64,000 nt of DNA, taken from NCBI GenBank assembly GCA_020438215.1, contig JAGQUX010000004.1, positions 4,636-68,635 on the forward strand. Direction: 5' to 3'. This DNA is from Armatimonadota bacterium (lineage in GTDB: Bacteria > Armatimonadota > Fimbriimonadia > Fimbriimonadales > Fimbriimonadaceae). Both the position numbers and the translations under genes were made by a program. This document shows positions 27,091 to 41,318 of this stretch, in pieces (the stretch's first letter is position 1; each line of letters begins with the position of its first letter). The notes under the pieces are model-generated. The model had not been told where the DNA came from. It did no database searches and saw only the letters and a program-made list of their open reading frames with translations.

Positions 27091-28494
27091 ATGAAGCTTC
27101 GAATTCCGTTTGCCGTCACCGCACTTGCCCTTGCTGGTCTTGGGCTCGCACAAAGCCAAGCCTGGGAGAAACTCATCACTCCCGGCCTTACATACCGAAT
27201 GGAGATTGATCTCCAACTTCCGCGCGTGATCCATGCACTCCGCTACACGCCCGGGGTCAATGTTTCTAGCCGCCCAGAGATTGCTGGCGAAGTTGTTATC
27301 GACATGGATACGGAAACGAAGGGCCGCGAAGCCCTTTCCACCACCATTGAGCGCAATGGAGCCATCGCGGGCATCAATGCAGACTTCTTCCCCTGGACAG
27401 GTGACCCACTTGGGCTCATGGTTCGGCGCGGAGAACTGCTCAGTTCGCCATTTCCAGACCGATCAGTCTTTGCATGGGGTGCAGGCTACTCTTTTGCTGG
27501 CCCCGCTACATTCCGAGGTTCAATCGTTGGCTCAGGCATGACGCTGAGTCTTGATGGCGTCAACCAGGAATGCCAAGAGGACATGCTCATCCTTAACATG
27601 CCGGTTGGCGGGTTTGCCACTTCAAAAGAGGATGCGCTCTATGTTGTTCTCGAAGGAGCCCAGACCCTCACTCCCAAAAGCAGTTTCAAAGCTCGCGTCG
27701 GGCTCTTCACACCCGATATCAAGCAACTCAAAGTCAATAAAGACCAAATGGTCTTAGTGGGGCATGGGGTTGCGAAAGATAAGCTCGCCAAGCTTGAACG
27801 CGGCTCCGAAGTCACGATCAATATCGCAATGGGCGGTGTGGATTGGGACAAGGCCGTCAATGCCGTGGGAGGTGGCCCACTCCTGCTTTCCAATGGCAAA
27901 GAGTCTATTGATGTCGCTAAAGAGCACTTCGGGGCCGCTTTTGCAACTGATCGCCATCCGCGAACCGCCATCGGATCCACTCCACAGGGAGATGTCTGGC
28001 TGGTAGTCGTTGATGGGCGCCAAGACATGAGCCGCGGTGCAACGCTCGCTGAGATGGCCGCAATCATGCGCCGCCTCGGGTGCACAGGCGCAATTAACCT
28101 TGATGGTGGCGGTAGCTCCACGCTCAACGTTATGGGTGTGACGATGAACCGCCCTTCCGGTGGAGCCGAGCGAGCAATCTCTAACAGTCTTTTGCTGTTT
28201 GGGGTTGATCCGGTTGTAGGCACTGACCCGGGAAGCTTTGTCATCAAAGGTGTGCCTCGCGTCGAAATGGGCAAGACCGCTAGCTTTTCGGTTGTTGATG
28301 TTGCTGGCAACACAATCCCAGTCCGCGATGTTTTCTGGTCGGCAATGGGTGACGCTTGGATTGACCAAGCCGGAATCCTTCGCACCCTCAAGCCGGGCAA
28401 ATGCCAGATCACTGCATGGGTCAAGGGCGTAAAAATGACCGTAGAAGTCACCGTCGAGGGTGCATCCGCCCCACCACCAGCTCAAAAAAGCTAA
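27091..28494 (+). CDS. Phosphodiester glycosidase (NAGPA) family protein
   Basis: AGINADFF, GGGPLL, HPRTAIG, VVDGRQ, AINLDGGGS. Confidence 0.9.
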   Translation: MKLRIPFAVTALALAGLGLAQSQAWEKLITPGLTYRMEIDLQLPRVIHALRYTPGVNVSSRPEIAGEVVIDMDTETKGREALSTTIERNGAIAGINADFFPWTGDPLGLMVRRGELLSSPFPDRSVFAWGAGYSFAGPATFRGSIVGSGMTLSLDGVNQECQEDMLILNMPVGGFATSKEDALYVVLEGAQTLTPKSSFKARVGLFTPDIKQLKVNKDQMVLVGHGVAKDKLAKLERGSEVTINIAMGGVDWDKAVNAVGGGPLLLSNGKESIDVAKEHFGAAFATDRHPRTAIGSTPQGDVWLVVVDGRQDMSRGATLAEMAAIMRRLGCTGAINLDGGGSSTLNVMGVTMNRPSGGAERAISNSLLLFGVDPVVGTDPGSFVIKGVPRVEMGKTASFSVVDVAGNTIPVRDVFWSAMGDAWIDQAGILRTLKPGKCQITAWVKGVKMTVEVTVEGASAPPPAQKS

Positions 28495-28579
28495 AAATGC
28501 ACAAATGAGGAATCCTGCGCAAGCTGAGCAGCGTAGGAACCAAACGTTTTGGCACGCAAATGTGCCTGAGAGAAGAATA

Positions 28580-31500
28580 ATGGTTCTAACTTCAATTATC
28601 GCGGCAGTCGCAGCTCAATCTGCCGACGGAGAGATCCGGCTCGCCCGATATCCCGATATCCACGGCGATAAGTACGTCTTCGTCTATGCATCCGACCTCT
28701 GGGTTGCAGATCGAGATGGCGGTGTTGCCCGGCGACTCACCTCCCACCCTGGTTTAGAGCAAAACCCCCGATTCTCCCCCGATGGGCAGTGGATCGCATT
28801 TACCGGTCAATACGACGGAAGCAGCGATGTCTATGTGATCTCGGTCAATGGCGGCACCCCAAAGCGCCTGACCTACGAAAACGGCACCGAGCATGTCCGT
28901 GACTGGACTCCCGACGGCAAGAAAGTCGCCTACGTCTCCAGCTACGGCAACTCGGCTGGCATGGGCAGGCTGTGGTTCGTCAGCAAAGATGGGGGTCTCC
29001 CCGAACGTACAGATGTTCAAGAAGCGTTCGATGTCAGCTTCAACTCAGACGGAAGCAAAATGGCTTTCAACCGCGCGCCGAGCCACATGTTCAACTGGCG
29101 ACGGTACCGAGGCGGAACCCAAGGCCGAATCTCATTCTGGGATTTTGCGAACAACGGCTACTCCGAAATTCCATCTGGACGTGAGCAAAACTACTTCCCC
29201 ATGTGGGTTGATGACTCTGTCTTCTACATCAGTGATAAAAATCAAGGCAATTTGAATCTATATCGCTACGATACGGGCAACAAACGAGTCACTCAGCTCA
29301 CCAACTACACCGATGGCGACATTCGCTGGCCTGGAACCGATGGCAAGACCATTATTTTCGAGCGAAATCTCCGCCTTCACGTTTACGACATCAAGTCTGG
29401 TGCGGTGAAGCAGCTCGAACCACGAGTTTCCGGCGACGACTATTCCATGATGCCGCGCTATGTGAGCATGAGCAACAGCATCAACGGTTTCGGAATCTCT
29501 CCAACTGGTAAGCGGCTCGTTGTGGAATCACGGGGTGAAATTTTCTCCGTGCCGGCGAACCGGGGCGAGGCTCGCAACCTCACCGACTCAAACGGTGCTC
29601 GCGAAAGCCTCGCGGAATGGTCACACGACGGTCAGCATATTTACTATTTGACCGATCGTTCTGGAGAAACACAGCTTGTTCGTCAGGCTCAAATGGGCGG
29701 CGAAGAGGTCGTTGTCCCTACGAATTCAGCTGATCCGCTGGAAGGCTTCCAAGTCTCCCCGGTTGGCGGCAAAGTGATCTTCACCACCACTACCGACGAA
29801 ATGTGGGTGATGGATCTGGATGGCAGGAACAAGAAGCTCATCCACAAGAATATGGGTGGACAGGTTCTCCCTTACGAATGGTCAGGCGACGGGAAGTTCA
29901 TCGTTTACGGAAAGACAGCGGCGAATCAACTCACCAGCACGGCGATCTACGATGTTGCCGCAGGCAAAAGCCACCAAGTCACCACCGGGTTCTACAACGA
30001 TTCCGGCTGGACATTAGATCGAACCGGCAAATTCCTGTACATCGCCTCTGATCGAACCTTCAGCCCGACGATGTCCTTGTTCGAAATCTCCATGATTCAG
30101 AACAACACGACTCGTATCTATGTCATTCCGCTGGAAAAGGGCTCAGAAAACCCGCTCACCCAGCCTGACGACGAAGAGCCAGTCAAATCTGATAAGGCAG
30201 ACGGCGAAGGCGATAAACAGGAAGAGAAGAAAGAAACTGAGTACGACTTCACCAACATGGAGAAGCGCATGCTCGTTCTTCCGTTCCCGCCCGCACAGTA
30301 CGGACAAATTGCTGGCGTTCGCAACGGCGTTCTGGTGCAAACAGCAACAGGTCAACTGCTTCAGTTCAGCATGGGTTCCAAATCCATCGCTCCTGTTGCC
30401 TCTGGAGTTGCATTCTTCACCTTCAACGCTGATCGTTCCAAGATGGCTCATACCGACGGCCAAAACGTCTTTATCAACGACGTTCGACCGGGAATCCAAC
30501 CTGGGCAAGGTCAAGTCACTCAGCCGAACATCGGTAACACCATCGACCCGCGCAAGGAATACGCACAGATGTTCGATGATGTTTGGCGATACCAACGCGA
30601 TGAGTTCTACGACAAAGACATGCTCGGTCTAGATTGGGATGCAATCGGTAAGAAATACCGAGCGATGCTCCCGTTCATCGGCGATCGCTCTGATTTCGAC
30701 TACATCATTGGTCAATTGATTGGTGAGCTCGGTACAGGTCACGCTTACGTGACGCCTGGCGCAGGTGGTTCTGACCCAATGAGCCAAATCACTGGTTACC
30801 TGGGCGCAGACTTCAAGGCCGTTGGCGATCGAGTGCAGATGACTAAGGTTTATCGAGGTTTCAACTTCGATCCTTCGGCTCGTGGCCCGCTCGGTGAACC
30901 AGGAATGGATGTCAACGACGGCGATTACATCTTGGCGATTGATGGCGTGCAAGTCACCGCTCAAACCGGTGTGAGTCCACTCCTCGCCGGAAAGATCAAC
31001 CGCAAAGTCAGCGTGACAGTGAACGACAAACCATCTATGGATGGCGCGCGCACCATCTCGGTACGGCCAGTTAGCAGCGAATCGAACCTCCGCTACGAAA
31101 CTTGGGTTGAAGAACGACGCCAAATGGTTTCGGAAATGTCCGGTGGCCGAATTGGCTACATGCACGTTCCCAACACCAACGTTGCCGGGATCATCGGCTT
31201 TGTGAAGGGCTTCTACTCCCAAGCGGACAAGGAAGCCATGGTTGTCGACGAGCGGTACAACGGAGGCGGCTGGATTCCAACCTTCTTCATTGAGCATCTG
31301 CAGCGAGACTTCACCAACATCATTGCTCCGCGGCACGGCGCAGAAACTGGCTTGCCCAGTAGTCTGCGCGGACCGAAAGCCATGCTGATCAACGGCTATG
31401 CCGGTTCGGGTGGCGATCTCTTCCCGTACCTGTTCAAGAAAGCTGGCCTTGGCCCGCTCATCGGAACACGAACTTGGGGCGGATTGGTCGGGATTTCCGG

Positions 31501-31747
31501 CGGACGCAACCTCATCGGTGGCGGTTCGGTGACTTCTCCAGCGTTTGGTATCTACGATCCCGACACCAAGAAGTGGATCGCAGAAAACACAGGTGTTGAT
31601 CCTGATATCAACATCGACGATCGCCCAGATCTCGCCGCGAAGGGTCAGGATCCTCAGCTAGAGCGCGCAGTTCAAGAGTTGATGAAGCAACTCAAAGAAC
31701 CTGCAAAACCGCTTCAGCGTCCTCCCTTCCCGAAAGTTGACAAGTAA
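28580..31747 (+). CDS. Tricorn-like protease (S41; propellers plus PDZ)
   Basis: PD40 repeats, GELGTGHAY, RIGYMHVP, DERYNGGG, AGSGGD, TWGG; ATG 28580 gives a signal peptide. Confidence 0.93.
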   Translation: MVLTSIIAAVAAQSADGEIRLARYPDIHGDKYVFVYASDLWVADRDGGVARRLTSHPGLEQNPRFSPDGQWIAFTGQYDGSSDVYVISVNGGTPKRLTYENGTEHVRDWTPDGKKVAYVSSYGNSAGMGRLWFVSKDGGLPERTDVQEAFDVSFNSDGSKMAFNRAPSHMFNWRRYRGGTQGRISFWDFANNGYSEIPSGREQNYFPMWVDDSVFYISDKNQGNLNLYRYDTGNKRVTQLTNYTDGDIRWPGTDGKTIIFERNLRLHVYDIKSGAVKQLEPRVSGDDYSMMPRYVSMSNSINGFGISPTGKRLVVESRGEIFSVPANRGEARNLTDSNGARESLAEWSHDGQHIYYLTDRSGETQLVRQAQMGGEEVVVPTNSADPLEGFQVSPVGGKVIFTTTTDEMWVMDLDGRNKKLIHKNMGGQVLPYEWSGDGKFIVYGKTAANQLTSTAIYDVAAGKSHQVTTGFYNDSGWTLDRTGKFLYIASDRTFSPTMSLFEISMIQNNTTRIYVIPLEKGSENPLTQPDDEEPVKSDKADGEGDKQEEKKETEYDFTNMEKRMLVLPFPPAQYGQIAGVRNGVLVQTATGQLLQFSMGSKSIAPVASGVAFFTFNADRSKMAHTDGQNVFINDVRPGIQPGQGQVTQPNIGNTIDPRKEYAQMFDDVWRYQRDEFYDKDMLGLDWDAIGKKYRAMLPFIGDRSDFDYIIGQLIGELGTGHAYVTPGAGGSDPMSQITGYLGADFKAVGDRVQMTKVYRGFNFDPSARGPLGEPGMDVNDGDYILAIDGVQVTAQTGVSPLLAGKINRKVSVTVNDKPSMDGARTISVRPVSSESNLRYETWVEERRQMVSEMSGGRIGYMHVPNTNVAGIIGFVKGFYSQADKEAMVVDERYNGGGWIPTFFIEHLQRDFTNIIAPRHGAETGLPSSLRGPKAMLINGYAGSGGDLFPYLFKKAGLGPLIGTRTWGGLVGISGGRNLIGGGSVTSPAFGIYDPDTKKWIAENTGVDPDINIDDRPDLAAKGQDPQLERAVQELMKQLKEPAKPLQRPPFPKVDK

Positions 31748-31774: not shown

Positions 31775-31815
31775 GAGGGACTCCCGAGATAAAAAACCGG
31801 GAGTCTCTCGCTTTT
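31775..31815 (+). terminator. Probable terminator after tricorn protease
   Basis: GAGGGACTCCCG...CGGGAGTCTCTC stem then CTTTT. Confidence 0.65.
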
Positions 31816-31883
31816 AAGCCTGAGATTTTTCCGCAACAAGTTGGCGCATTACCAAGCGAAACAGAGGAAAACAGGAAAACGAT

Positions 31884-34800
31884 ATGGCCGATAAGTTCAA
31901 ATGGGGCAAATTAGTTGGCAAAGGAAAGAAGAAAGATAACACCATCAACATGATGGCGCCGCTCGAGCCGGATCCACCGATGGCACCGGTTGTCGATCTC
32001 AACAACACCTCCACCAATCAACCGATAGCTTCTCAACCTCCGGTGGCTCCACCTGCACAGCAAGTGAGCGAAGCTCCGAAAGAAGAGCGTGCTCCGCTAG
32101 TGATTGAGTGGAACACATATCAAGAAGAGCAACGTCAAGCAACCGGCACTGAAGGTCAACTCGTGACCGCAGGCGGTAGTAACCATCAGTCTCAAGTTCA
32201 AAATTACGGCGGTGCGCCTACCCCCATGGCACCTCCGACCTCGGCCCCAACTACGCCTCCTGTTTCTCACGCACCCATTGCACCAACTCCTTCTGCAGAA
32301 TCAGCGCCAGCCGCGCCTGCGACTCCACCAACTGGTGGATTCAGCTGGGATGCTGTTCTGAATCCAAGTGCATCTCAAGAAGTCACCCCAAAGGCTGAAC
32401 CCGAAATCCCTGCTGAGCACGCCCCCGACAATGGGATGGGGCCGATCACACGTGGCTGGGATGATGTGGAACTCACGCCTTCCGAGAAAAACACTTTAGA
32501 TACGACTTTCCGAGGTCAAGAAAGCGGCCCAATCAGCATGGACACAGTCAAGGGCGCGACTCCAGAGTCGATTGCGAACAACCCTGCATGGGATGAACCA
32601 ACATCGTCTCCAGCACCTGCGGCACCAGTTCAGCCGCCGGTCAGTGCCGCACCTCCTGCTCCGGTAACTCCACCCGTGAATACTCCTCCAGTTGAAGCGC
32701 AACCGCCAGTTGCGAGTGCGAATTCACCTGCGGAAATTGAGCCATCGATAGAAGAGATTGTCAACCAAGCGGTTGAAACCCCCACATACTCGGCTCCTGA
32801 ACCAAATGCACCTGTCGTAGAATCTTCAGTAGCTCCGGAACCTGAGTCAGCTCCTGAGCCGACCTATTCTGCACCATTGGCTGCTCAACTAGGAGACATT
32901 GATCCAATCCCAGTGCCAGAAACCAATTCTGCGCCGACTACTGAAGAGGTCACCACACCTCCAGCGAATGTTTCACCGGAAGCTGCGCAGGCACCTGCAT
33001 GGAACACGACTTCGGCGACAGCTGGTTCATTTGGTCTTCAAAATCCTTTTGAAGCGAAGCAAGAAGAGCCTATATTGACCGGCGATTCTGCACCAGAAGA
33101 TGCGGTTAACCAGGTTGAACCGATCAAAATTCCAGATTTTGAATCGAATGAAGAGTTCGATTGGTCATCGCTCGAGGCATTTGCAAAGCAAAAGGCGGAT
33201 GAGGACAAGCTCTATGCGCAGCCTGCAGCACCGACTCTTCAAGAAGAGCCTGCGGCAGAAGTCGCTCCGATTTCCATCGGAGAATCAGCGCCTGAAATCG
33301 AAGTAGCATCAGCGCCGATTACGGAGCCAGTAGACGATCAACCAAACGGTGAATTCAGCTGGTCAAAGATTATGGGCGCTCCTGCTTCTCAAGAAACTGA
33401 AGAAACGGTTGTCGAAGCTATTGAAGAGGTTGAGGAAGTCGTTGAAGAACCAGTCACGGAAGCAAATGAAGTAGCAATTCCAGTTACTGAAGTGCAAGAG
33501 ACTCCTGCTACTGAACCCGAGGCACCGGCTGCCGTAGAAACACCTACGTCGGAATCAGAAACCACCGAGGCAGCACAGCCAACATCCCGAGTCAATTGGG
33601 ATGCGCTGGAAGAAACTGCAGCCGCTTCAGAGCCTGTGATCGAGGAAGCAATTCAACCAATTGCTCAGGAGCCAGTCATCGCGCCACCAGCACCGCCTGT
33701 CCAAGAGCAGGTTGTTGCCGACGCTCGAGCTGATATTCCAGAACAATATAAGCGAATTCTCGACGAATCTGAGTTCGATGCTGCAAAGGAAGTCCGAGTT
33801 GGAGACTTGCTGCTTCAAAACGGGCTGATCACGCAAGCTCAATTGGATCGTGCACTGGAGCGACAAAGTGAGTCAAGAGAGAAGCTTGGTCAAGTACTCA
33901 TCTCGATGAACATCATGAGCGAGGAGCGATTGCTCCAGGCAGTTGCGGCGCAAAAGGGTGTGAACCCCTGGCACTTGCAACATGATGCTCCGAGCCTTGA
34001 TGCCGTCAAGATGCTGCCGGAAGGCACATGCCGGATGTTCCAGGCATTGCCAGTAGCGATTCGGGATAACCATTTGGTTGTCGCCATGCGCGACCCATCA
34101 GACGACGAAGCGAAGCATTCTCTTGCCGCCGTCGCGAAGATGGACATAGAGGTTGTTTTGGCTGATGATGCACGCCTTGCCTATGCCATTGACAAATCGT
34201 TTGGCCTCAACGAGGCGAAACGAATTGCCGAGGCGGATGAGCAAGTTGCGATGGCAATGAAGGCTTATCAAACGCTTGCGGAAGGTCAACTGGGCGTTCA
34301 TATTCCCGCAAATGAAGAATCGGTACGAGTTGTATACGGCCTTGTAGATTCCATCATACAGGATGGTATCAGCATGCAAGCGAGCGATATCCACTTTGAG
34401 CCCGCTAAGGATGCCACTTTGATTCGATATCGACTTGATGGGCGCTTGAAAACCGTGCGCGAAATCCCACGAGACCTCACCCATTTGGTTGAATATCGAC
34501 TGAAAAATCTGGCCGAAATCAACACGAATGAAAGCCGAGTTGCTCAAGAAGGACGTTATTCAGCCTCGTATGGTCCGAACCAAGTTGAAGTCCTTGTCAA
34601 TACAATGCCGAGTACACATGGTAGCCGAATCACCCTCCAAGTTCTTGATCGAACCATTGGGTTGAAGAAGCTCCACGATCTCGGGATGAACACGAAGAAC
34701 GAAAAGCTCTTCCGCGATCTCATCAACAAACCGTACGGTCTATTCTTGATCGCTGGGCCATCATCAAGCGGTAAAACGACAACTGCGTATGCTGCCCTGT

Positions 34801-35507
34801 CTGAGCTTCAATCGGAAGATCGCAACATCATTACCTGTGAAAACCCAGTTGAGTACGACCTCAAGGGTGTGACGCAAACGCAGATTAACCAAAAGGTGGG
34901 TAGCAGTTACAGCGACCAAGTTCGGTCGGCTCTCAAGCAAGATCCGGATGTCATCTTCATCGGTGAGATTGCTGATCGGCAGACCGCTGACATCGCTCTC
35001 CGCGCGGCAATGACAGGTCACTTTGTGATCGCAACTGTGCCGGGCAATGATGCTGCGTCATCTATTCCAAATCTTCTTAATCTGGGAGTTGACCCGCACC
35101 TGCTCAGCTCCGTATTGATCGGCACAATGAGCCAGCGTCTCCTGCGTAAGTTGGATGCAACTCAGCGAGAATCAACTCAGCCGACCGATGAAGAACGCTT
35201 TGTTCTCTATCGCTTCTTCAAAGAAGATGAGGTCAACGAAGTCTATCAACCAACTGGTGAGAATAGCTGGACGGGGCGTATCGCGATCCACGAAGTCTTG
35301 CCCGTCACAGCTTCGATCAAGAAACTCATTACCGACAAAGCGACTTCGCCGGAAATCCGCGAAGCAGCAATGGAAGCAGGATTTGTTCCAATGCAAAAGC
35401 TCGCAATGGACAAGGTGAAAGCAGGCGATACAACCGTCAGTGAAGCGATCCACCAGCTCGCGTTCGAGATCACCGAACCATACGGTGAAGATCGCGCTTC
35501 TGCCTAA
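31884..35507 (+). CDS. GspE/PulE/PilB family protein with MshEN domain and ~630-aa low-complexity N-terminus
   Basis: SDIHFEP, RYRLDG, GPSSSGKTTT, QDPDVIFIGEI, AMTGH, GRIAIHEVL; MshEN motif from residue 638. Confidence 0.9.
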   Translation: MADKFKWGKLVGKGKKKDNTINMMAPLEPDPPMAPVVDLNNTSTNQPIASQPPVAPPAQQVSEAPKEERAPLVIEWNTYQEEQRQATGTEGQLVTAGGSNHQSQVQNYGGAPTPMAPPTSAPTTPPVSHAPIAPTPSAESAPAAPATPPTGGFSWDAVLNPSASQEVTPKAEPEIPAEHAPDNGMGPITRGWDDVELTPSEKNTLDTTFRGQESGPISMDTVKGATPESIANNPAWDEPTSSPAPAAPVQPPVSAAPPAPVTPPVNTPPVEAQPPVASANSPAEIEPSIEEIVNQAVETPTYSAPEPNAPVVESSVAPEPESAPEPTYSAPLAAQLGDIDPIPVPETNSAPTTEEVTTPPANVSPEAAQAPAWNTTSATAGSFGLQNPFEAKQEEPILTGDSAPEDAVNQVEPIKIPDFESNEEFDWSSLEAFAKQKADEDKLYAQPAAPTLQEEPAAEVAPISIGESAPEIEVASAPITEPVDDQPNGEFSWSKIMGAPASQETEETVVEAIEEVEEVVEEPVTEANEVAIPVTEVQETPATEPEAPAAVETPTSESETTEAAQPTSRVNWDALEETAAASEPVIEEAIQPIAQEPVIAPPAPPVQEQVVADARADIPEQYKRILDESEFDAAKEVRVGDLLLQNGLITQAQLDRALERQSESREKLGQVLISMNIMSEERLLQAVAAQKGVNPWHLQHDAPSLDAVKMLPEGTCRMFQALPVAIRDNHLVVAMRDPSDDEAKHSLAAVAKMDIEVVLADDARLAYAIDKSFGLNEAKRIAEADEQVAMAMKAYQTLAEGQLGVHIPANEESVRVVYGLVDSIIQDGISMQASDIHFEPAKDATLIRYRLDGRLKTVREIPRDLTHLVEYRLKNLAEINTNESRVAQEGRYSASYGPNQVEVLVNTMPSTHGSRITLQVLDRTIGLKKLHDLGMNTKNEKLFRDLINKPYGLFLIAGPSSSGKTTTAYAALSELQSEDRNIITCENPVEYDLKGVTQTQINQKVGSSYSDQVRSALKQDPDVIFIGEIADRQTADIALRAAMTGHFVIATVPGNDAASSIPNLLNLGVDPHLLSSVLIGTMSQRLLRKLDATQRESTQPTDEERFVLYRFFKEDEVNEVYQPTGENSWTGRIAIHEVLPVTASIKKLITDKATSPEIREAAMEAGFVPMQKLAMDKVKAGDTTVSEAIHQLAFEITEPYGEDRASA

Positions 35508-35520
35508 TCAAGCAAACAAA

Positions 35521-35555
35521 TGAGGGTAGCCAATCGGCTACCCTCATTTTTCTTT
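35521..35555. terminator. Bidirectional terminator between convergent genes
   Basis: TGAGGGTAGC-caatcg-GCTACCCTCA, A-rich on the left and T5 on the right. Confidence 0.85.
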
Positions 35556-37399: not shown

Positions 37400-37446
37400 G
37401 GGCACAGATTACCGCCGCCATGCTGGGCCATCTCTTGTTCAGGACC

Positions 37447-37452
37447 TATAAT
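37447..37452 (+). promoter_or_regulatory. -10 box of the rnpB promoter
   Basis: Perfect TATAAT 7 nt upstream of the RNase P RNA 5' end; no clear -35. Confidence 0.6.
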
Positions 37453-37459
37453 TTCCATT

Positions 37460-37779
37460 GAGAGTTGGTCGGGTGACGGCTGTTCTGGCTTCGGCTGGGA
37501 TGGAGGAAAGTCCGGACTTCATAGGGCGCGGTGCCTGGCGCAAGCCAGGGCGGGGTAACCCGACGGAAAGTGCAACAGAAAGCAGACCGCCAGCAATGGC
37601 AAGGGTGAAACGGTGGTGTAAGAGACCACCAGCGTCCGGGGTGACTCGGACGGCTTGGCAAACCCCACCGGAAGCAAGGCCAAATAGGGAGGGGGTGAAG
37701 CTGCCCGCAGACCCTCCGGGTAGGCCGCATTAGTCAAATCGTCACACAAATACAGAATCCGGCTTATAGACCAACTCTC
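37460..37779 (+). ncRNA. rnpB: RNase P RNA (type A-like, lacking P18)
   Basis: GAGGAAAGTCC, GAAAGTGCAACAG, AAGGGTGAAA, GAAGCAAGG, ACAGAATCCGGCTTA; 11-bp P1 GAGAGTTGGTC/GACCAACTCTC. Confidence 0.97.
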
Positions 37780-38161
37780 ACTTTTCTTCTGGAGTTGCGC
37801 GTGCCTGAATAGCCTTCATTGTGAGAGTTGCAAAGAGCGAGCCCGTGCAAATCACGACACCACCTCGGATATGTGTTGCGTACCCCGGTGTGTTGGCAAT
37901 AAATACATTTATCCCCATGGTCATACCGCACAGGAGCCCAACCAATTGCCAATAATCTCGGGAGCCAAATCTGAGCGCGAGAATCCCAACGACCGTATTG
38001 ATGATTCCGAGCACGAGATACGGAATCACATTGTTCATACGAAATCCGAGCGTTGCTATGAGGAAGCCCGCAAAGGCAAAAATGGGCACAAGAACGAACA
38101 ACCGCCATGCCGTCAATTCGGAAACATTTATTCGCTGAGCACTATCCATTTCATCCACCAA
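37778..38161 (-). CDS. Hypothetical ~4-TM membrane protein
   Basis: Four hydrophobic segments; overlaps the upstream gene; stop codon overlaps the rnpB 3' end. Confidence 0.7.
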   Translation of the reverse strand: MVDEMDSAQRINVSELTAWRLFVLVPIFAFAGFLIATLGFRMNNVIPYLVLGIINTVVGILALRFGSRDYWQLVGLLCGMTMGINVFIANTPGYATHIRGGVVICTGSLFATLTMKAIQARATPEEK

Positions 38162-38567
38162 CCTTCACCGGGAATCCATCATCTTCGACGATGCGCTTGC
38201 CATCCGCGGAGTGATAACTGATCGTGTAGTTTGCTTCGTTTTCGTTGAGTATCTCTACCGACAGTTCGAATTCAGATAAGGGAAGCTGCTCGTTCGCTTG
38301 CTTGGCTCGGTTATTGATCTCGATGTAGCCTTCCGGGAAAAGGGTTTCCAAGTCCTCACCCCACTTGCCATTGATGGCGCGGTAACGCTCTGTTCGGTTT
38401 TGGAAAGTTTCGTACAAGGGGGCGAGCCAGGAATATCGGTACTCCTCTTCGGGAGGTTGATTGCGTTGCTCATTCTGCTTGCCCAGATACACCCACGTTG
38501 CTAGGAAGGCAAAGCAAGTGATTGCGAGGATGAGGAGATTGCGTTGCTTATTGATCACTCTGAACAT
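38151..38567 (-). CDS. Hypothetical protein with a single N-terminal TM anchor
   Basis: Basic N-terminus, hydrophobic helix, acidic soluble domain; overlaps its neighbours. Confidence 0.7.
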   Translation of the reverse strand: MFRVINKQRNLLILAITCFAFLATWVYLGKQNEQRNQPPEEEYRYSWLAPLYETFQNRTERYRAINGKWGEDLETLFPEGYIEINNRAKQANEQLPLSEFELSVEILNENEANYTISYHSADGKRIVEDDGFPVKVGG

Positions 38568-38929
38568 CCCCCCCGTCCAATATGTCCCCCTTCACGGAAG
38601 CGCACCCAGAAGATGTAGATCCCGGCGAGAGCGATTGGCAAGACGCCAATCCACCAGAGAGTCATGGAGAATGAATCATCTCTTGGAAAACTGAGTGTTG
38701 CCATGAGTGCTGGCACCAAAAAGAAATTGCCGCTTACTAGATTTCGCTTATTCTTTTGCTCGAACTGAATAACCGAACCAATTGAAGCCAGTACGCCTAA
38801 TCCGGCATATGAATATCCCGCCAGCTCTCTGAACCAAATCAGCGAAATGATATGAAAAGCCAGGCTAACCAGCGACAGTGCCACCCCAAACACCCAAAAC
38901 CAAACGCTACGCTTTCTCTGCTTGCTCAC
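38555..38929 (-). CDS. Hypothetical ~4-TM membrane protein
   Basis: GTG start after a purine-rich GAGGAGAAGAAGA tract; four hydrophobic segments. Confidence 0.65.
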   Translation of the reverse strand: MSKQRKRSVWFWVFGVALSLVSLAFHIISLIWFRELAGYSYAGLGVLASIGSVIQFEQKNKRNLVSGNFFLVPALMATLSFPRDDSFSMTLWWIGVLPIALAGIYIFWVRFREGGHIGRGGCSE

Positions 38930-39275
38930 TCTTCTTCTCCTCATGTCTCTGAGAATCACCGAAGTTCGATGACAGCATGACAATGCATCCAGCTACGATT
39001 CCTACACAATATAACCCGCCCTGCGCGTAGTCTTTCCGAGGTAGCTGATATGCCGCCTGCATCAAAACAAAAGCAATGGCGATAAAGAATCCAGTCCGAA
39101 ACCACTCTTTTGCTCTGCGAACGACAATTGATGAGGCACTGCAGGCGACCAGCAGAAAAAAGTAAGCCAACCCCGTCTGTGCATCCCACCAACGGAGCGT
39201 CGCCCAATACCAAACTCCGCAGAGAGTCGGCGCCGCCACTCCCCAAATCCAAAACTTCGGAGTGAGCTCTTTCAT
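38907..39275 (-). CDS. Hypothetical ~4-TM membrane protein
   Basis: ATGA overlap with the upstream stop; four hydrophobic segments. Confidence 0.7.
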   Translation of the reverse strand: MKELTPKFWIWGVAAPTLCGVWYWATLRWWDAQTGLAYFFLLVACSASSIVVRRAKEWFRTGFFIAIAFVLMQAAYQLPRKDYAQGGLYCVGIVAGCIVMLSSNFGDSQRHEEKKSEQAEKA

Positions 39276-40033
39276 TTCACCGCCTTTGTGCGGCGTGCCC
39301 GGACGCTTTTCGCGATGATATAGGCTCCAATCCCCGTGTTCAGCACGAGCGAGGCAATAACCAGAACTTCAACAAACGCGGGAATCTCCCCGACATGACT
39401 CATGAGCCCCCGACTAGAAAGGAGCATCAGCAAGCCGTAGCTGGCATACATTGAGTTCATGCGTAGCTTCAACCCCACCAGCGGAGCTACGAAAGAAATA
39501 GCAAGCAAGACATAAAATGCCGAATAACAAATGTTGGGGTTGGTCTGGAAATTGGCGACCATCAAGAAGAGCAGGAGGATGGGCAATCCTCCCGCCAAAG
39601 CCAGCCAATAAAGCGCCCTTTCCTGATCAGATTGATGCACTTTGCTCATGCTCGCTCCTTCCAAGCCGGTTGGCTGAAATACCACTTTCGCGCCCCCGCC
39701 CAGGCAAGTAAACCGATGCCCCAAAATAAAAAGTCCCCAGATGGCCAACCATCCCCGATCAGACCGGAGAGCCATTTGAATAAAACCGATACCAAGTGGG
39801 ATCATACACAGGAGACCCCAACCCTTTTCGCTCTTTGAATATGCAATCTCACGCCATTGAGCAACTAGTACGCTGGCAAAGCCAATAAAGGAGACGCACC
39901 AAACAAAAATAGTTAGCTCGTTTGGAAAACAAAGATAGAACCCGCACGCGTACCCAACGAGAACCCAAGGATGCTCCCCAAAAGCAAAGTGCTTCGCCCA
40001 ATGCGTTTTCTCCCGAGCAGTCATTTGCTCCAC
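39272..40033 (-). CDS. Hypothetical multi-TM protein (two ~4-TM halves)
   Basis: Hydrophobic halves joined by a polar linker that contains an in-frame SD plus ATG at 39649. Confidence 0.7.
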   Translation of the reverse strand: MEQMTAREKTHWAKHFAFGEHPWVLVGYACGFYLCFPNELTIFVWCVSFIGFASVLVAQWREIAYSKSEKGWGLLCMIPLGIGFIQMALRSDRGWLAIWGLFILGHRFTCLGGGAKVVFQPTGLEGASMSKVHQSDQERALYWLALAGGLPILLLFLMVANFQTNPNICYSAFYVLLAISFVAPLVGLKLRMNSMYASYGLLMLLSSRGLMSHVGEIPAFVEVLVIASLVLNTGIGAYIIAKSVRARRTKAVK

Positions 40034-40071
40034 CTCTTTATGATATCAAAAACTTGGCAAAGTTGCCACTA

Positions 40072-41073
40072 TCACTCCAGCGGTTTTTCCGAGAGCCAGC
40101 GCAAAGCAAGAGTATTCTCGTGCTCCTTCCAGTCGCCATAGCCCAACGCCCAAGTGAGGGCATACCAACGCTCCAATGCAACCCAATAAGTGACATTAAG
40201 CTGACTCATGGACATCTCCTTGGTCAGCATCCCATTGATCTTGAAGTCATTGCCATGCCAATCTAATTCCGGCAGGTGACGCTTGATATCCCTCAAGTCT
40301 TCTCCGGACGACGAAGCGCTGTTGATCGCCCTGAAGAAATCCGATTCCCGAATAAAAAGCTCCTCATCGACACGCCACATCACCGCATCACAGATTCGGC
40401 GCGCAATTTCCAGCTCATTTTCGGATCGGAGCTTAGCTCTCCCCCTGTGAGCCTTCCAATTCGTGGTGGGAATCTCGTTTTCTAGCGTTCCGAAATAATC
40501 CGCTTCCCAGATATCAAAGTTGATATCAAATTCGACATAGCCAAGCGCAAAATCGAGAGCGTGCGCCGCCTCACTCCGATATCGAAGATCCGTGTTTTCC
40601 TGTTCGCTGAGCTCGCCGATTGCTTTGTCCATCAGCGCTTGGTCAGCAGGATCAAGCGTAATCACTTCTTGAGAAATTTCTTGCAGGTTTTTCAGAAAAA
40701 CCTGGCTCTCCCGGTCATCCGCGTTGAAATAGTCATCCGAACGCTCTGACATCAAGAACTCCGTCATCATGCGCTCATAAATTGCATCCTGGCTCTGCGG
40801 AGTCCCCTGCTTCAGAGGTTCGCCATACACCGCATTGTCCAGGAGCTTATCGGCAAAGAATCCGAGCACAATCATTGAGATAAAGCACAACCCCGCTGCG
40901 GCAATCAAGAGCCATACCCAAATCGGCACCTTTGATTTCTGTGGTGCGGAAGGGGAGTGCATCGGCGGTGGTGAGGCCGGAAACCCTTGTTGTGGCGGAG
41001 GCATGGACATGTTTCTTTCTCTCCTGATCAACTCATTATGCATCGACCTAAAGCTAAATCCCCTAGAAACCAA
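40072..41073 (-). CDS. Membrane-anchored protein with DUF4272-like C-terminal region (start probably downstream, at MSMPPP)
   Basis: Pro-rich N-terminus, TM helix, C-terminal ERWYALTW resembling the DUF4272 ERHYALNW motif. Confidence 0.6.
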   Translation of the reverse strand: MVSRGFSFRSMHNELIRRERNMSMPPPQQGFPASPPPMHSPSAPQKSKVPIWVWLLIAAAGLCFISMIVLGFFADKLLDNAVYGEPLKQGTPQSQDAIYERMMTEFLMSERSDDYFNADDRESQVFLKNLQEISQEVITLDPADQALMDKAIGELSEQENTDLRYRSEAAHALDFALGYVEFDINFDIWEADYFGTLENEIPTTNWKAHRGRAKLRSENELEIARRICDAVMWRVDEELFIRESDFFRAINSASSSGEDLRDIKRHLPELDWHGNDFKINGMLTKEMSMSQLNVTYWVALERWYALTWALGYGDWKEHENTLALRWLSEKPLE

Positions 41074-41147: not shown

Positions 41148-41233
41148 GGGGAGTTGCCCGAGTGGCCAATGGGAACAGACTGTAAATCTGTCGGCGGAAG
41201 CCTACGCAGGTTCGAATCCTGCACTCCCCACCA
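41148..41233 (+). tRNA. tRNA-Tyr(GTA)
   Basis: Acceptor GGGGAGT/ACTCCCC, anticodon arm ACAGA-CTGTAAA-TCTGT, long variable arm, GTTCGAATC, encoded CCA. Confidence 0.97.
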
Positions 41234-41243
41234 TATTCATATT

Positions 41244-41318
41244 GCCCCCGTAGCTCAGAGGTAGAGCGTTCCCTTGGTAAGGGAGAGGTCACGAGTTCAA
41301 TTCTCGTCGGGGGCTCCA
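41244..41318 (+). tRNA. tRNA-Thr(GGT)
   Basis: Acceptor GCCCCCG/CGGGGGC, anticodon loop TTGGTAA, GTTCAATTC, encoded CCA. Confidence 0.97.

What the first reader, a model, noticed from the sequence alone, without database searches (positions are those of the whole stretch)
31884..33794. ~630-aa disordered arm on a PilB/GspE protein studded with [FV]-x-W-x-x-[LIV] motifs
The N-terminal half is rich in P, A, E and T, yet isolated aromatic motifs recur: FKWGKL (aa 5), FSWDAV (153), FDWSSL (425), FSWSKI (491) and VNWDAL (570). Weaker ones include GWDDV, AWDEP and AWNT, and PTYSAP occurs twice. This is the layout of a scaffold carrying short linear docking motifs, as in polar organisers, and is unusual on a secretion ATPase. 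It suggests multivalent docking or condensate-like localisation of a pilus or secretion machine (inference).
Basis: partly seen in the sequence, partly recalled or inferred. Interest (0 to 1): 0.65.

Follow-up and report, generated by a model that had tools for sequence, protein, structure and literature searches.

The report
Trp-studded disordered arm on PilB-like ATPase
A stand-alone pilus/secretion-type motor protein of a wastewater Armatimonadota bacterium carries a real, conserved 635-residue floppy acidic arm, dotted with conserved tryptophan motifs and capped by a conserved N-terminal peptide, while its ATPase engine has lost key catalytic features, so it may act more as a tethered docking hub than as a plain motor.

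Summary
ORF 31884-35507 (+) encodes 1207 aa: a P/A/E/T-rich arm (aa 1-~635), a MshEN c-di-GMP motif (638-690) and a PilB/GspE-type ATPase (813-1188). All motifs sit where reported, with 5 [FV]xWxx[LIVM] matches against 0.13 expected.

The arm is coding (dN/dS 0.17, SD before the ATG) and AF2 predicts it to be disordered (pLDDT 30-48). It is a family trait: positional orthologues in Fimbriimonadaceae/Armatimonadota carry arms of 200-850 aa.

W is the most conserved residue type in the arm (P=0.0016). An N-terminal cap, M-x-E-x-F-x-W-x-K-L-L plus basic residues, recurs in at least 12 of the 50%-identity clusters. APLVI[DE]WxxY and GWDDVELTPxE are conserved islands. FSWDAV, FDWSSL and FSWSKI are internal copies of the cap motif, multiplied in this lineage.

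- The ATPase has lost the gamma-phosphate His of the His box (H to P), the GEIRD Arg and the Zn tetracysteine. Two sister lineages show parallel losses.
- The gene never lies next to pilus or T2SS genes.

The scaffold/SLiM reading is partly supported. Binding partners, membrane anchoring and condensate formation remain untested, and the strong net negative charge argues against simple self-condensation. I rate it a new variant of a known kind, interest about 0.55.

The parts
31777..31816 (+). Hairpin (GGGACTCCCG...CGGGAGTC) followed by a T-run after the upstream tricorn-like protease gene. Likely a terminator that separates the two genes.
   Evidence: Read by eye. The scanner did not list it, probably because its 11-nt loop exceeds the scanner's limit. 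Low-to-moderate confidence.
31863..31876 (+). Shine-Dalgarno-like purine tract (AGAGGA ... AGGA). The AGGA ends 7 nt before ATG 31884.
   Evidence: Sequence.
31884..35507 (+). Whole ORF, 1207 aa: disordered arm, then MshEN, then PilB/GspE-type ATPase.
31884..31946 (+). N-terminal cap, aa 1-21: MADKFKWGKLVGKGKKKDNTI. Family consensus is M-[GA]-E-x-F-[SD]-W-[DE]-K-[LV]-L followed by a basic cluster and DNTI.
   Evidence: Conserved at the extreme N-terminus in at least 12 clusters at 50% identity. W7 is identical in 7 of 7 subclade orthologues. In the short-arm orthologue P0129 the cap forms a helix (7-13) with pLDDT ~75, but pLDDT is only 48 in the query model.
31977..32000 (+). Small hydrophobic island, aa 32-39 (PMAPVVDL). 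Family form is [ML]-[AG]-P-V-A-P-L.
   Evidence: island 34-39.
32082..32126 (+). Island 2, aa 67-81: EERAPLVIEWNTYQE. Family form is [KR]APLVI[DE]W..Y.
   Evidence: W76 is conserved in 6 of 7. AF2 places a low-confidence helix at 76-86.
32340..32357 (+). Internal cap-like copy FSWDAV (aa 153-158), within the extended pattern P.G.FSW......ASQE.
   Evidence: Cap-PSSM score of 20.8 bits. W155 aligns to W in 5 of 7 ([GK]FW[NGE]x[LM]). Similar to the 491 copy.
32448..32492 (+). Island 3, aa 189-203: TRGWDDVELTPSEKN. Family form is GW[DS]DV[ED]LTP.E.
   Evidence: W192 is conserved in 7 of 7, the longest conserved island of the arm.
32586..32600 (+). AWDEP (aa 235-239), a lineage-specific W.
   Evidence: 0 of 7 conserved.
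32781..32876 (+). Two PTYSAP copies (aa 300-305 and 326-331) in a local PE-rich repeat.
   Evidence: No counterpart in orthologues.
32997..33008 (+). AWNT (aa 372-375).
   Evidence: W373 aligns to W in 3 of 7 (WASLSA, WSS, WTSSQV).
33156..33203 (+). Internal cap-like copy FDWSSL (aa 425-430) plus the following helix-prone SLEAFAKQKADE (aa 429-440). Relates to the IPD[IF]F-AKAMG island of orthologues.
   Evidence: Cap-PSSM score of 14.0 bits. AF2 helix at 429-440 with pLDDT ~57. Alignment.
33354..33371 (+). Internal cap-like copy FSWSKI (aa 491-496).
   Evidence: Cap-PSSM score of 22.8 bits. Counterparts are PFSWSQMS (P0121), SFWDSILG (P0127) and IPDIFAKAMG (P0003, P0004, P0155). Probably a duplicate of the 153 copy.
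33591..33608 (+). VNWDAL (aa 570-575), lineage-specific.
   Evidence: 0 of 7 identical. Below the cap-PSSM threshold.
33738..33749 (+). [IV]PExY island (aa 619-622) at the junction of arm and MshEN.
33795..33953 (+). MshEN-type c-di-GMP-binding module, aa 638-690: two 24-residue motifs with a 5-residue spacer.
   Evidence: NF053729 scores 62.2 bits against a cutoff of 38. Motif 1 fits the strict consensus of PMC5013675. Motif 2 fits the relaxed consensus except Gly10 to Asn.
33981..34208 (+). Rest of the MshEN/N1 domain (aa 700-775).
   Evidence: PF05157, E=1.7e-12. pLDDT >90.
34320..35447 (+). T2SSE (PilT/VirB11-like) N2 and C-terminal ATPase domains, aa 813-1188.
   Evidence: PF00437, E=1.5e-88. 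PDB PilF/PilB E=1e-103 to 1e-90. Foldseek TM 0.87-0.90 to PilF/PilB cores.
34755..34781 (+). Walker A GPSSSGKTT. The Lys is kept. G961 to S is unusual.
   Evidence: 118 of 120 homologues have G at 961.
34941..34976 (+). Walker B / catalytic Glu segment DPDVIFIGEIAD. Glu1028 is kept and Arg1030 is replaced by Ala.
   Evidence: 118 of 120 homologues have R. P0155 has T at this position.
35013..35054 (+). His box TGHFVIATVPGNDA. The second His is replaced by Pro1053.
   Evidence: 118 of 120 homologues have H. The equivalent H420 of Geobacter PilB coordinates the ATP gamma-phosphate (PMC5424180). P0127/P0274 have K and D at the two His positions.
35154..35267 (+). Region of the lost tetracysteine Zn site (LRKLDATQRE ... 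TGENSWTGR). There is no Cys after the His box.
   Evidence: 116 of 120 homologues have C at 1091 and 1094..
35518..35549 (.). Bidirectional intrinsic terminator (14-bp stem) shared with the convergent methyltransferase gene.

Best explanation
The gene encodes a cytoplasmic, stand-alone member of the PilB/MshE/GspE branch of hexameric secretion ATPases. Its N-terminus has been extended by a long, strongly acidic, Pro/Ala-rich intrinsically disordered arm.

The arm acts as a flexible tether that displays short Trp-centred linear motifs:
- a conserved N-terminal cap (F-x-W-x-K-hydrophobic-hydrophobic, followed by Lys/Arg);
- two further conserved islands, APLVI[DE]WxxY and GWDDVELTPxE;
- in this lineage, three or four extra internal copies of the cap motif.

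A hexamer would present six arms, so about 24-30 cap-type motifs and 54 Trp. Even weak individual contacts would then give strong avidity. I infer that the motifs dock the hexamer to a binding surface. That surface could be the membrane (for the basic cap), a folded partner, or the folded part of the same or another hexamer. Docking would thereby control where and when the c-di-GMP-sensing MshEN-ATPase module acts.

In the window's lineage the ATPase has lost the gamma-phosphate-contacting His, the GEIRD Arg and the Zn site, yet remains under strong purifying selection. So the protein has probably shifted from a fast motor towards a nucleotide-binding scaffold or regulator.

Shown: the architecture, the predicted disorder, the coding status, the motif conservation, the motif multiplication, the degenerate catalytic motifs and the lack of pilus neighbours. 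Inferred: that the motifs bind something, what they bind, the avidity mechanism and the shift to a scaffold role.
For: Coding and start site:
- dN/dS of the arm is 0.17 against a 91%-identical relative, with only one in-frame indel.
- There is an SD before ATG 31884 and a conserved Met-cap.
- Internal starts would cut into the MshEN motif.
- Metatranscriptome contigs of a 90-95% relative cover arm segments (weak evidence).

Disorder:
- AF2 pLDDT is 30-48 over aa 1-625. The same holds for the arm of P0129.

Family trait:
- Positional orthologues share S66-NAGPA-Tricorn-[arm-PilB] synteny in L023, L024, L025, L026 and L034. Their arms are 413-585 aa.
- Further clade members have arms of 210-853 aa.

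Motif conservation:
- W is the most conserved residue type in the arm: 3.56 of 7 identical against 1.38 of 7 overall (P=0.0016; P=0.007 without the cap).
- The conserved islands coincide with W7, W76, W155 and W192.

W enrichment:
- W makes up 1.0-3.2% of 14 of the 15 clade arms (0.7% in P0124) and 0.27-0.49 of their aromatics (0.14 in P0124). It is 0-0.4% in 10 of 11 PilB arms from other lineages (1.1% in P0177) and 0.07 of the aromatics in the query's folded part.
- The context preference is [FI]-x-W-[NDG]-[KD].

Cap multiplication:
- A leave-one-out cap PSSM finds 3 internal hits in the query against 0.01 expected.
- The 153 and 491 copies share P.G.FSW......ASQE.

Degenerate core:
-, with PMC5424180 for the roles of the His box and the Zn site.
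- Core dN/dS is 0.044, so the core is still constrained.

c-di-GMP link:
-.
- An EAL-HDOD protein, an HDOD protein and a PilZ protein lie next to orthologue P0142.

Precedents:
- Truncating the 79-aa IDR of CpaF changes pilus dynamics but not ATPase activity (PMC12019362).
- The bactofilin N-terminal peptide MFSKKKK binds membranes, with avidity from oligomerisation (PMC12448750).
Against: - No binding partner or membrane binding has been shown.
- AF2 gives no confident structure or docking for any W island in the query itself.
- The basic cluster after the cap is not conserved in the more distant clade members (P0005, P0129, P0133, P0142). The helical hydrophobic moment of the caps is only moderate and inconsistent. 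A generic membrane anchor is therefore not a family-wide property.
- The internal cap-like copies lie in acidic surroundings.
- Several query W motifs (236, 572) are not conserved.
- Walker A Lys, Asp-box Glu and the catalytic Glu are intact, so residual ATPase activity is possible and 'scaffold' may overstate the change.
- Arm alignments of low-complexity sequence are uncertain away from the islands.
Confidence: 0.5

Rival explanations
1. Cis or trans self-docking. The cap and cap-like motifs bind the protein's own folded MshEN/ATPase part. Within a chain or hexamer this would give autoinhibition or control of assembly. Between hexamers it would give higher-order networks, with more copies in the query giving higher valence.
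For: In the short-arm orthologue P0129 the cap (aa 1-20, helix 7-13) reaches pLDDT ~75 while the rest of the arm is below 50. That is unusual for a free 7-residue helix and suggests AF2 packs it against something. The cap motif is multiplied in the query. IDRs of related ATPases have been proposed to act allosterically: CpaF and the PilU tail.
Against: In the query model the cap has a pLDDT of only 48 and no W island is confident. Contacts in the models could not be inspected with the tools.
Confidence: 0.17
2. Entropic spacer or bristle. The arm works through its bulk, charge and length, for example by steric exclusion from the nucleoid or from a PilM-type cage, by aiding solubility, or by setting distance. 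It would make no specific motif-mediated contacts, and the W residues would be tolerated or serve only transient intrachain contacts.
For: Arm length varies widely among relatives, from 0 to 853 aa. The linkers drift quickly. Net charge is strong and uniform, -0.07 to -0.16 per residue, with high Pro content. PAE-rich arms without W occur in other PilB lineages.
Against: W is the best-conserved residue type and lies in conserved islands. The N-terminal cap is conserved across at least 12 clusters. W is strongly enriched relative to comparable arms. A pure spacer does not explain any of these.
Confidence: 0.13
3. Homotypic sticker-and-spacer condensate. Trp stickers in a low-complexity spacer drive phase separation of the ATPase into a polar or membrane-associated condensate.
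For: Aromatic (W) enrichment in a disordered low-complexity arm. Hexamerisation multiplies valence. In the query the W spacing is more even than random (P=0.026).
Against: The net negative charge is strong (-0.13 per residue) with few cationic residues, which disfavours homotypic condensation without a polycationic partner. Even spacing is not reproducible across the clade: P ranges from 0.03 to 0.99. The most conserved elements are specific multi-residue islands, not generic single stickers.
Confidence: 0.1
4. Annotation artefact. The arm is not translated. The real protein would start near the MshEN domain and the upstream frame would be open by chance.
For: None positive. Only that the arm is low-complexity and that arm-less relatives exist.
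Against: A 1.9-kb open frame with dN/dS 0.17 and only an in-frame indel. The N-terminal Met-cap is conserved in many orthologues. There is an SD at the 5' ATG. No ATG/GTG/TTG start lies between residue 586 and the MshEN motif at 638, and later starts would truncate that motif.
Confidence: 0.02

Closest known systems
Type IVa pilus extension ATPase PilB / Thermus PilF / Vibrio MshE (PilB-GspE clade of PilT/VirB11-like ATPases)
   Same: Same folded architecture: an MshEN (GSPII) N1 domain with the tandem 24-residue c-di-GMP motif, then N2 and a C-terminal ATPase domain. Best PDB sequence hits are PilF and PilB (E=1e-103 to 1e-90). Foldseek TM is 0.87-0.90. Walker A Lys, Asp-box Glu, catalytic Glu and the conserved Arg residues are present.
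   Different: - A 635-aa disordered N-terminal arm.
- Scores far below the PilB and GspE equivalog cut-offs (400.9 against 675.65, and 380.1 against 630.25).
- The second His-box His, the GEIRD Arg and the tetracysteine Zn site are lost.
- No pilC, pilM, pilT or pilin genes nearby, in the window or beside relatives.
- PilF extends its N-terminus with extra folded GSPII domains, not with disorder.
Caulobacter CpaF N-terminal IDR (Tad pilus motor) and Myxococcus PilU C-terminal IDR
   Same: These are published cases of disordered extensions on type IV filament ATPases. The CpaF IDR is dispensable for ATPase activity but needed for normal pilus dynamics (PMC12019362). The PilU tail is proposed to be regulatory (PMC13584747).
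   Different: They are 79 and ~112 aa, against 635 aa here (up to 853 aa in the clade). No Trp array or conserved terminal cap is described for them. They belong to different ATPase subfamilies.
Bactofilin N-terminal membrane-targeting sequence (MFSKQAKS, consensus MFSKKKK)
   Same: A short aromatic-plus-lysine peptide at the extreme N-terminus of a disordered tail. Binding is weak for a single peptide and becomes effective through oligomer avidity (PMC12448750).
   Different: The cap core here is F-x-W-x-K-L-L, and its basic tail is not conserved in the more distant clade members. Membrane binding has not been tested. The internal copies are in acidic surroundings.
SLiM scaffolds on bacterial IDRs (RNase E C-terminal domain) and polar organisers with acidic IDRs (FimV/HubP, PopZ)
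   Same: A long disordered region in which short conserved islands are embedded in fast-drifting linkers. For RNase E, SLiMs assemble the degradosome (PMC11964227, abstract). The comparison with FimV, HubP and PopZ rests on my own knowledge.
   Different: Here the scaffold is fused to a hexameric secretion-type ATPase. No clients are known. The motifs are Trp-centred.
Eukaryotic Trp-motif hubs (GW182/TNRC6 'Ago hook' W-motifs, W-acidic kinesin-light-chain motifs)
   Same: Functional analogy only, from my own knowledge. Isolated Trp residues flanked by small or acidic residues in a disordered region each insert into a pocket of a folded partner and work multivalently.
   Different: There is no homology. 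These are eukaryotic, and no W-pocket partner has been identified here.

Membership tests
PilT/VirB11-like secretion ATPases (Pfam T2SSE, PF00437) | Match to the family HMM above the gathering score | tested here: met
   297.4 bits against a cutoff of 24.9, covering aa 813-1188.
PilT/VirB11-like secretion ATPases | Walker A Lys, Asp-box Glu residues and the catalytic Glu of the atypical Walker B segment | tested here: met
   K964, E986, E990 and E1028 lie in columns that are invariant in 120 homologues.
PilT/VirB11-like secretion ATPases | His box with the gamma-phosphate-contacting histidine (H420 in Geobacter PilB) | tested here: not met
   The first His (H1046) is kept. The second is Pro1053, where 118 of 120 homologues have His. 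Its role is described in PMC5424180.
PilB/GspE clade | Tetracysteine Zn-binding motif in the C-terminal domain | tested here: not met
   D1091, Q1094 and no Cys after the His box, whereas 116 of 120 homologues have Cys. PMC5424180 reports the motif as conserved in this clade.
Type IV-A pilus assembly ATPase PilB (NCBIfam TIGR02538 equivalog) | Score at or above the curated equivalog cut-off | tested here: not met
   400.9 bits against a cutoff of 675.65.
Type II secretion ATPase GspE (NCBIfam TIGR02533 equivalog) | Score at or above the curated equivalog cut-off | tested here: not met
   380.1 bits against a cutoff of 630.25.
Type IV pilus / T2SS machinery component | Genomic association with platform (PilC/GspF), PilM/GspL, PilT or pilin genes | tested here: not met
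   None among the 30 large ORFs scanned in the 64 kb window, and none within about 10 kb in L023, L024, L025, L026, L027, L033 and L034. Such genes may lie elsewhere in the genome: Fimbriimonas has many (PMC4072686).
MshEN c-di-GMP receptor domain | [quoted passage not shown] | tested here: inconclusive
   NF053729 scores 62.2 against a cutoff of 38. Motif 1 (638-661) fits the strict consensus and the spacer is 5 aa. Motif 2 (667-690) fits the relaxed consensus except that the conserved Gly10 is Asn. Binding was not measured.
Disordered SLiM scaffold | The region is intrinsically disordered | tested here: met
   AF2 pLDDT of 30-48 over aa 1-625. Composition and net charge.
Disordered SLiM scaffold | Short islands conserved among orthologues while the linkers diverge | tested here: met
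   Islands at 4-10, 14-24, 34-39, 67-77 and 189-203. W is conserved at P=0.0016. The arm alone finds only a 90% relative in 5.8 billion proteins.
Disordered SLiM scaffold | The motifs bind defined partner domains | not testable with these tools
   No complex prediction or contact read-out was available. The only lead is the pLDDT of ~75 for the cap in P0129.
Sticker-and-spacer phase-separating domain | Aromatic stickers that are enriched and evenly spaced, with near-neutral net charge | tested here: inconclusive
   Enrichment is met. Even spacing holds for the query (P=0.026) but not across the clade. The net charge of -0.13 per residue is unfavourable.
N-terminal membrane-targeting sequence (bactofilin/MreB type) | N-terminal hydrophobic or aromatic residues plus basic residues, and membrane binding | tested here: inconclusive
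   The sequence pattern is present in the query subclade, with net +1 to +5 over residues 9-20, but absent in the more distant members. The hydrophobic moment is moderate. Binding was not tested.

The most novel reading that the evidence does not exclude
This is a family of PilB-derived hub proteins, confined to Armatimonadota (chiefly Fimbriimonadaceae). A c-di-GMP-sensing hexameric ring, catalytically crippled in the window's lineage, displays six very long acidic arms. The conserved N-terminal cap and Trp motifs on those arms recruit clients, or cross-link hexamers, into a membrane-proximal assembly. That would be a bacterial counterpart of eukaryotic W-motif hubs such as GW182, built on a secretion-ATPase chassis and uncoupled from any single pilus operon.
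Probability: 0.15. Interest if true: 0.8.

Novelty: new variant of a known kind. Interest (0 to 1): 0.55.

Why it matters
Short disordered tails on type IV filament ATPases have only recently been noticed (CpaF, PilU), and their mechanism is unclear. This case is an extreme natural version:
- The arm is larger than the enzyme.
- It has a clearly conserved N-terminal cap and Trp-centred islands.
- One lineage has multiplied the cap motif and at the same time lost catalytic hallmarks.

That combination gives a clean evolutionary series: arm-less, then short arm with a cap, then long arm with a W array, then long arm with a degenerate ATPase. The series could be used to ask what IDRs do on secretion motors, and how a motor becomes a scaffold.

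It also offers defined, mutable motifs (the cap, GWDDVELTP, APLVIDW) for partner discovery in a phylum with unusually many pilin-like genes and almost no cell biology. If the motifs prove to be docking sites, this would be one of the few bacterial examples of multivalent SLiM hubs.

Tried and rejected
1. Searching with the arm alone (aa 1-640) against 5.8 billion proteins found only one 90%-identical relative. The arm is too divergent for direct homology search, so orthologues had to be found through the ATPase part.
2. The genome-contig scan returned only distant PilB/GspE loci at 27-39% identity and no close orthologue.
3. An exact look-up of the window protein found nothing on record.
4. 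A profile search with the cap alone, to ask whether other protein families carry it, failed twice. The 44-aa profile gave 42 word-sharing candidates, none scoring. Whether the cap occurs on other proteins remains open.
5. Regular W spacing as a sticker-spacer hallmark is significant for the query (P=0.026) but not reproducible across the clade, so I rejected it as a family property.
6. The amphipathic-helix test of the caps gave moderate, inconsistent hydrophobic moments, which is not decisive.
7. I looked for cis-docking in the AF2 model of the query. No W island has a pLDDT above 60. The second model (P0129) gave a cap pLDDT of ~75, but contacts cannot be read out.
8. The sigma-70 promoter scan found no more sites than chance.
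9. I considered a functional link to the always-adjacent tricorn-like protease. A hairpin with a T-run separates the genes, and the protease ORF contains a signal-peptide-like segment (MVLTSIIAAVAAQSA), so it is probably exported. I treat the synteny as a marker of orthology, not of function.
10. I considered pseudogenisation of the query ATPase and rejected it: core dN/dS is 0.044. The split gene in the relative's MAG (a 1-nt deletion at aa 783) sits in an assembly with several other split genes and is probably an assembly error.


Full report
**What is there.** Window 31884-35507 (+) is a single 1207-codon ORF. Pfam finds MshEN (aa 700-775) and T2SSE (aa 813-1188). NCBIfam adds the MshE-type c-di-GMP motif at aa 638-690. 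The first ~635 residues match no family.

That stretch contains 15% Pro, 15% Ala, 13% Glu and 8% Thr. It has only 25 aromatic residues, nine of them Trp. The pattern [FV]xWxx[LIVM] occurs five times against 0.13 expected, and none of 20,000 shuffles reached five.

**Is the arm real protein?**
- An AGGA lies 7 nt upstream of ATG 31884.
- A hairpin with a T-run follows the upstream tricorn-like gene, and a 14-bp bidirectional terminator follows the stop codon. The gene therefore looks monocistronic.
- Against a 91%-identical relative (L025, a Fimbriimonadaceae MAG) the arm has dN/dS 0.17 and a single in-frame 21-nt indel. The MshEN region has 0.05 and the ATPase core 0.044.
- That MAG's copy is split by a 1-nt deletion. 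The MAG also has split tricorn and transketolase genes, so I read the split as an assembly error.
- No start codon lies between residue 586 and the MshEN motif, and later starts would truncate that motif.
- A metatranscriptome holds contigs of a 90-95% relative over parts of the arm and the core. This is weak support for transcription.
- AF2 with a 47-sequence alignment gives pLDDT 30-48 over aa 1-625 and >90 from about 635. The arm has only three short low-confidence helices, at 8-11, 76-86 and 429-440, each at or just after a W motif.

**Relatives.** The arm alone retrieves only the 90% relative from 5.8 billion proteins. Searching with the ATPase part, and then with a full-length profile against 1.84 billion representatives, reveals a clade with N-terminal arms of 210-853 aa. 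It includes P0003, P0004, P0005, P0009, P0121-P0129, P0133, P0134, P0142, P0155 and P0157.

Named members are Fimbriimonadaceae or Armatimonadota. One cluster is labelled as coming from filamentous cyanobacterial cultures and may be a contaminant. The window sequence itself occurs in activated-sludge and wastewater metagenomes.

Five loci share the window's gene order, LD-carboxypeptidase, NAGPA, Tricorn, then arm-PilB. These are positional orthologues and all of them have arms. The closest arm-less relatives (P0006, P0010, ~43% identity) lie in other contexts. None of these loci, and none of the 30 large ORFs I scanned in the 64 kb window, encodes a pilus or T2SS partner.

**Are the W motifs conserved while the linkers drift?** Yes, with corrections.

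In an 8-sequence alignment of the query's subclade, W is the most conserved residue type of the arm. On average 3.56 of 7 orthologues are identical at W positions, against 1.38 of 7 overall (P=0.0016; P=0.007 excluding the cap).

The conserved islands are:
- aa 1-24, the cap. The consensus is M-[GA]-E-x-F-[SD]-W-[DE]-K-[LV]-L, a Lys/Arg cluster, then DNTI.
- aa 34-39, M[AG]PVAPL.
- aa 67-77, APLVI[DE]W..Y.
- aa 189-203, GW[DS]DV[ED]LTP.E.

The cap is found at the extreme N-terminus in at least 12 of the 50%-identity clusters, including short-arm members.

W155 (FSWDAV) aligns to W in 5 of 7, W373 in 3 of 7, and W427 and W493 in 2 of 7. W236 and W572 are not conserved.

A PSSM built only from the orthologues' caps (leave-one-out) scores FSWDAVL (20.8 bits), FSWSKIM (22.8) and FDWSSLE (14.0) inside the query arm, against 0.01 hits expected. 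The other arms have few such hits: five in total against 0.49 expected. The 153 and 491 copies share P.G.FSW......ASQE, which suggests an internal duplication. So the window's lineage has multiplied the cap motif.

**Is the W array special?** PAE-rich N-terminal extensions occur in other PilB lineages but nearly all carry 0-0.4% W; one (P0177) has 1.1%. In 14 of the 15 clade arms W is 1.0-3.2% of residues and 27-49% of the aromatics (P0124: 0.7% and 14%). In the query's folded part W is only 7% of the aromatics. Over 146 W sites the context prefers F or I at -2, N/D/G at +1, K/D at +2 and Y/L/I/P at +3.

Even spacing of W is not a reproducible property. The arms carry a net charge of -0.07 to -0.16 per residue.

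**The folded part.**
- It is closest to Thermus PilF and Geobacter PilB (E=1e-103 to 1e-90; Foldseek TM 0.87-0.90).
- It scores well below the NCBIfam equivalog cut-offs for both PilB and GspE.
- MshEN motif 1 fits the strict published consensus. Motif 2 has Asn in place of the conserved Gly10.
- One short-arm orthologue sits between an HDOD protein and an EAL-HDOD protein, near a PilZ protein. That fits a c-di-GMP connection.

Among 120 homologues, only the query and its 95% relative have all of the following:
- Pro in place of the second His-box His (118 of 120 have His).
- Ala in place of the Arg of GEIRD (118 of 120 have Arg).
- Ser in place of Gly961.
- No Zn-site cysteines (116 of 120 have Cys).

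In Geobacter PilB the equivalent His (H420) coordinates the gamma-phosphate. The tetracysteine site is a hallmark of the PilB/GspE clade (PMC5424180).

Parallel degeneration occurs in P0127/P0274, where both His-box His residues and the cysteines are lost and the query's Asp at the first Cys position is shared. It also occurs in P0155, which has GEITD and a deleted Zn loop. The other clade members are canonical. Walker A Lys, the Asp-box Glu residues and the catalytic Glu are retained, and the core is under strong purifying selection. This is an altered ATPase, not a decaying one.

**Mechanism.** The best-supported reading is a flexible acidic tether that presents short Trp-centred docking motifs. 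It is anchored at its far end by the cap, and hexamerisation supplies avidity.

What the motifs bind is unknown. There are three candidates:
- The membrane. The basic caps of the query subclade resemble the bactofilin MFSKKKK targeting peptide (PMC12448750). However, the basic tail is not conserved in more distant members and the hydrophobic moments are moderate.
- A folded partner protein.
- The protein's own folded part. In the short-arm orthologue P0129, AF2 gives the cap a pLDDT of ~75 while the rest of the arm stays below 50. In the query model the cap has a pLDDT of only 48, and contacts could not be inspected.

Published work on CpaF shows that an N-terminal IDR can tune pilus dynamics without affecting ATPase activity (PMC12019362). 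The arm lengthening, cap multiplication and loss of catalytic hallmarks in the window's lineage together suggest a shift towards a scaffold or regulator role. That shift is inference.

**Comparison and novelty.** The protein belongs to the PilT/VirB11-like superfamily and to the PilB/GspE branch by fold. It fails three things: the His-box feature, the Zn-site feature of that branch, and the equivalog thresholds. It also has no machinery context. I therefore file it as a PilB-like ATPase of a distinct Armatimonadota subfamily, not as 'the' PilB or GspE.

I found no description of such arms in the searchable literature. IDRs on related motors are known but are 5- to 8-fold shorter, and no motifs are described for them. 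I rate this a new variant of a known kind, with interest of about 0.55. The architecture and its conservation are solid and unusual. The function is still inferred.

Noticed in passing
window 34755-35267 (aa 958-1128 of the same ORF): The ATPase core is degenerate at near-invariant positions: G961S, R1030A, the second His-box His to Pro1053, and all four Zn-site Cys lost. Core dN/dS is nevertheless 0.044. Parallel losses occur in clade members P0127/P0274 and P0155.
   Followed up: yes
window 37461-37782 (+): Bacterial RNase P RNA class A (272.7 bits). The ORFs listed at 37446-37733 on both strands are spurious overlaps of this RNA gene.
   Followed up: partly
window 41148-41233 and 41244-41318 (+): Adjacent tRNA-Tyr(GTA) and tRNA-Thr(GGT) genes.
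   Followed up: yes
window 28460-31747 (+): A tricorn-like protease (PD40, Tricorn_C1, PDZ_Tricorn, Peptidase_S41), always immediately upstream of the arm-PilB gene in positional orthologues. The listed GTG start is probably too far upstream. An internal MVLTSIIAAVAAQSA looks like a signal peptide, so the enzyme is probably exported.
   Followed up: partly
window 19165-20601 (-): A flagellin gene (Flagellin_N, Flagellin_IN, Flagellin_C). The orthologous locus L026 has FliS near the arm-PilB gene. This lineage appears to be flagellated, unlike the description of Fimbriimonas ginsengisoli as non-motile (PMC4072686).
   Followed up: no
L025 (GCA_041393375.1, JAWKKF010000018.1): The closest relative's MAG has the arm-PilB gene split by a 1-nt deletion at aa 783. 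Its tricorn, Jag and transketolase genes are also split or shortened. This pattern suggests indel errors in the assembly rather than real pseudogenes.
   Followed up: partly
P0045 / P0081 (35% identity, other lineage; proteins only): PilB-type ATPases with ~370-aa Pro/Glu-rich arms (net charge -0.21 per residue) carry a single YDWDLSKIKERL motif near the N-terminus that resembles the cap. This could be convergence or an older origin of the motif. Their taxon is unknown.
   Followed up: no
L033 6610-11748 and 15075-15812: The short-arm orthologue P0142 is flanked by an HDOD protein and an EAL-HDOD protein, with a PilZ-domain protein 5 kb downstream. This is a c-di-GMP signalling neighbourhood not seen in the window.
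   Followed up: no
P0123 (1431 aa), P0128, P0122 (proteins; L027/L028 for P0123): More distant clade members have even longer arms (624-853 aa) with 18-20 Trp. Their N-termini differ: GLFGAGKLFGIFGGK in P0123, and repeated F-x-W-P units in P0122. This suggests the W array is older than the specific cap.
   Followed up: partly
window 37778-39275 (-), 39275-41073 (-) and 53821-55851 (-): A run of small hydrophobic ORFs, which look like predicted membrane proteins, and three larger ORFs (253, 333 and 677 aa) with no Pfam match. The 677-aa one has a 711-aa counterpart without Pfam hits in L026.
   Followed up: no
P0131, P0135-P0141, P0143, P0145-P0151 (proteins): Many ~1000-aa hits have the PilB core at the N-terminus and a second matched stretch. 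They are probably tandem double-ATPase fusions like P0012 and are unrelated to the arm architecture.
   Followed up: no
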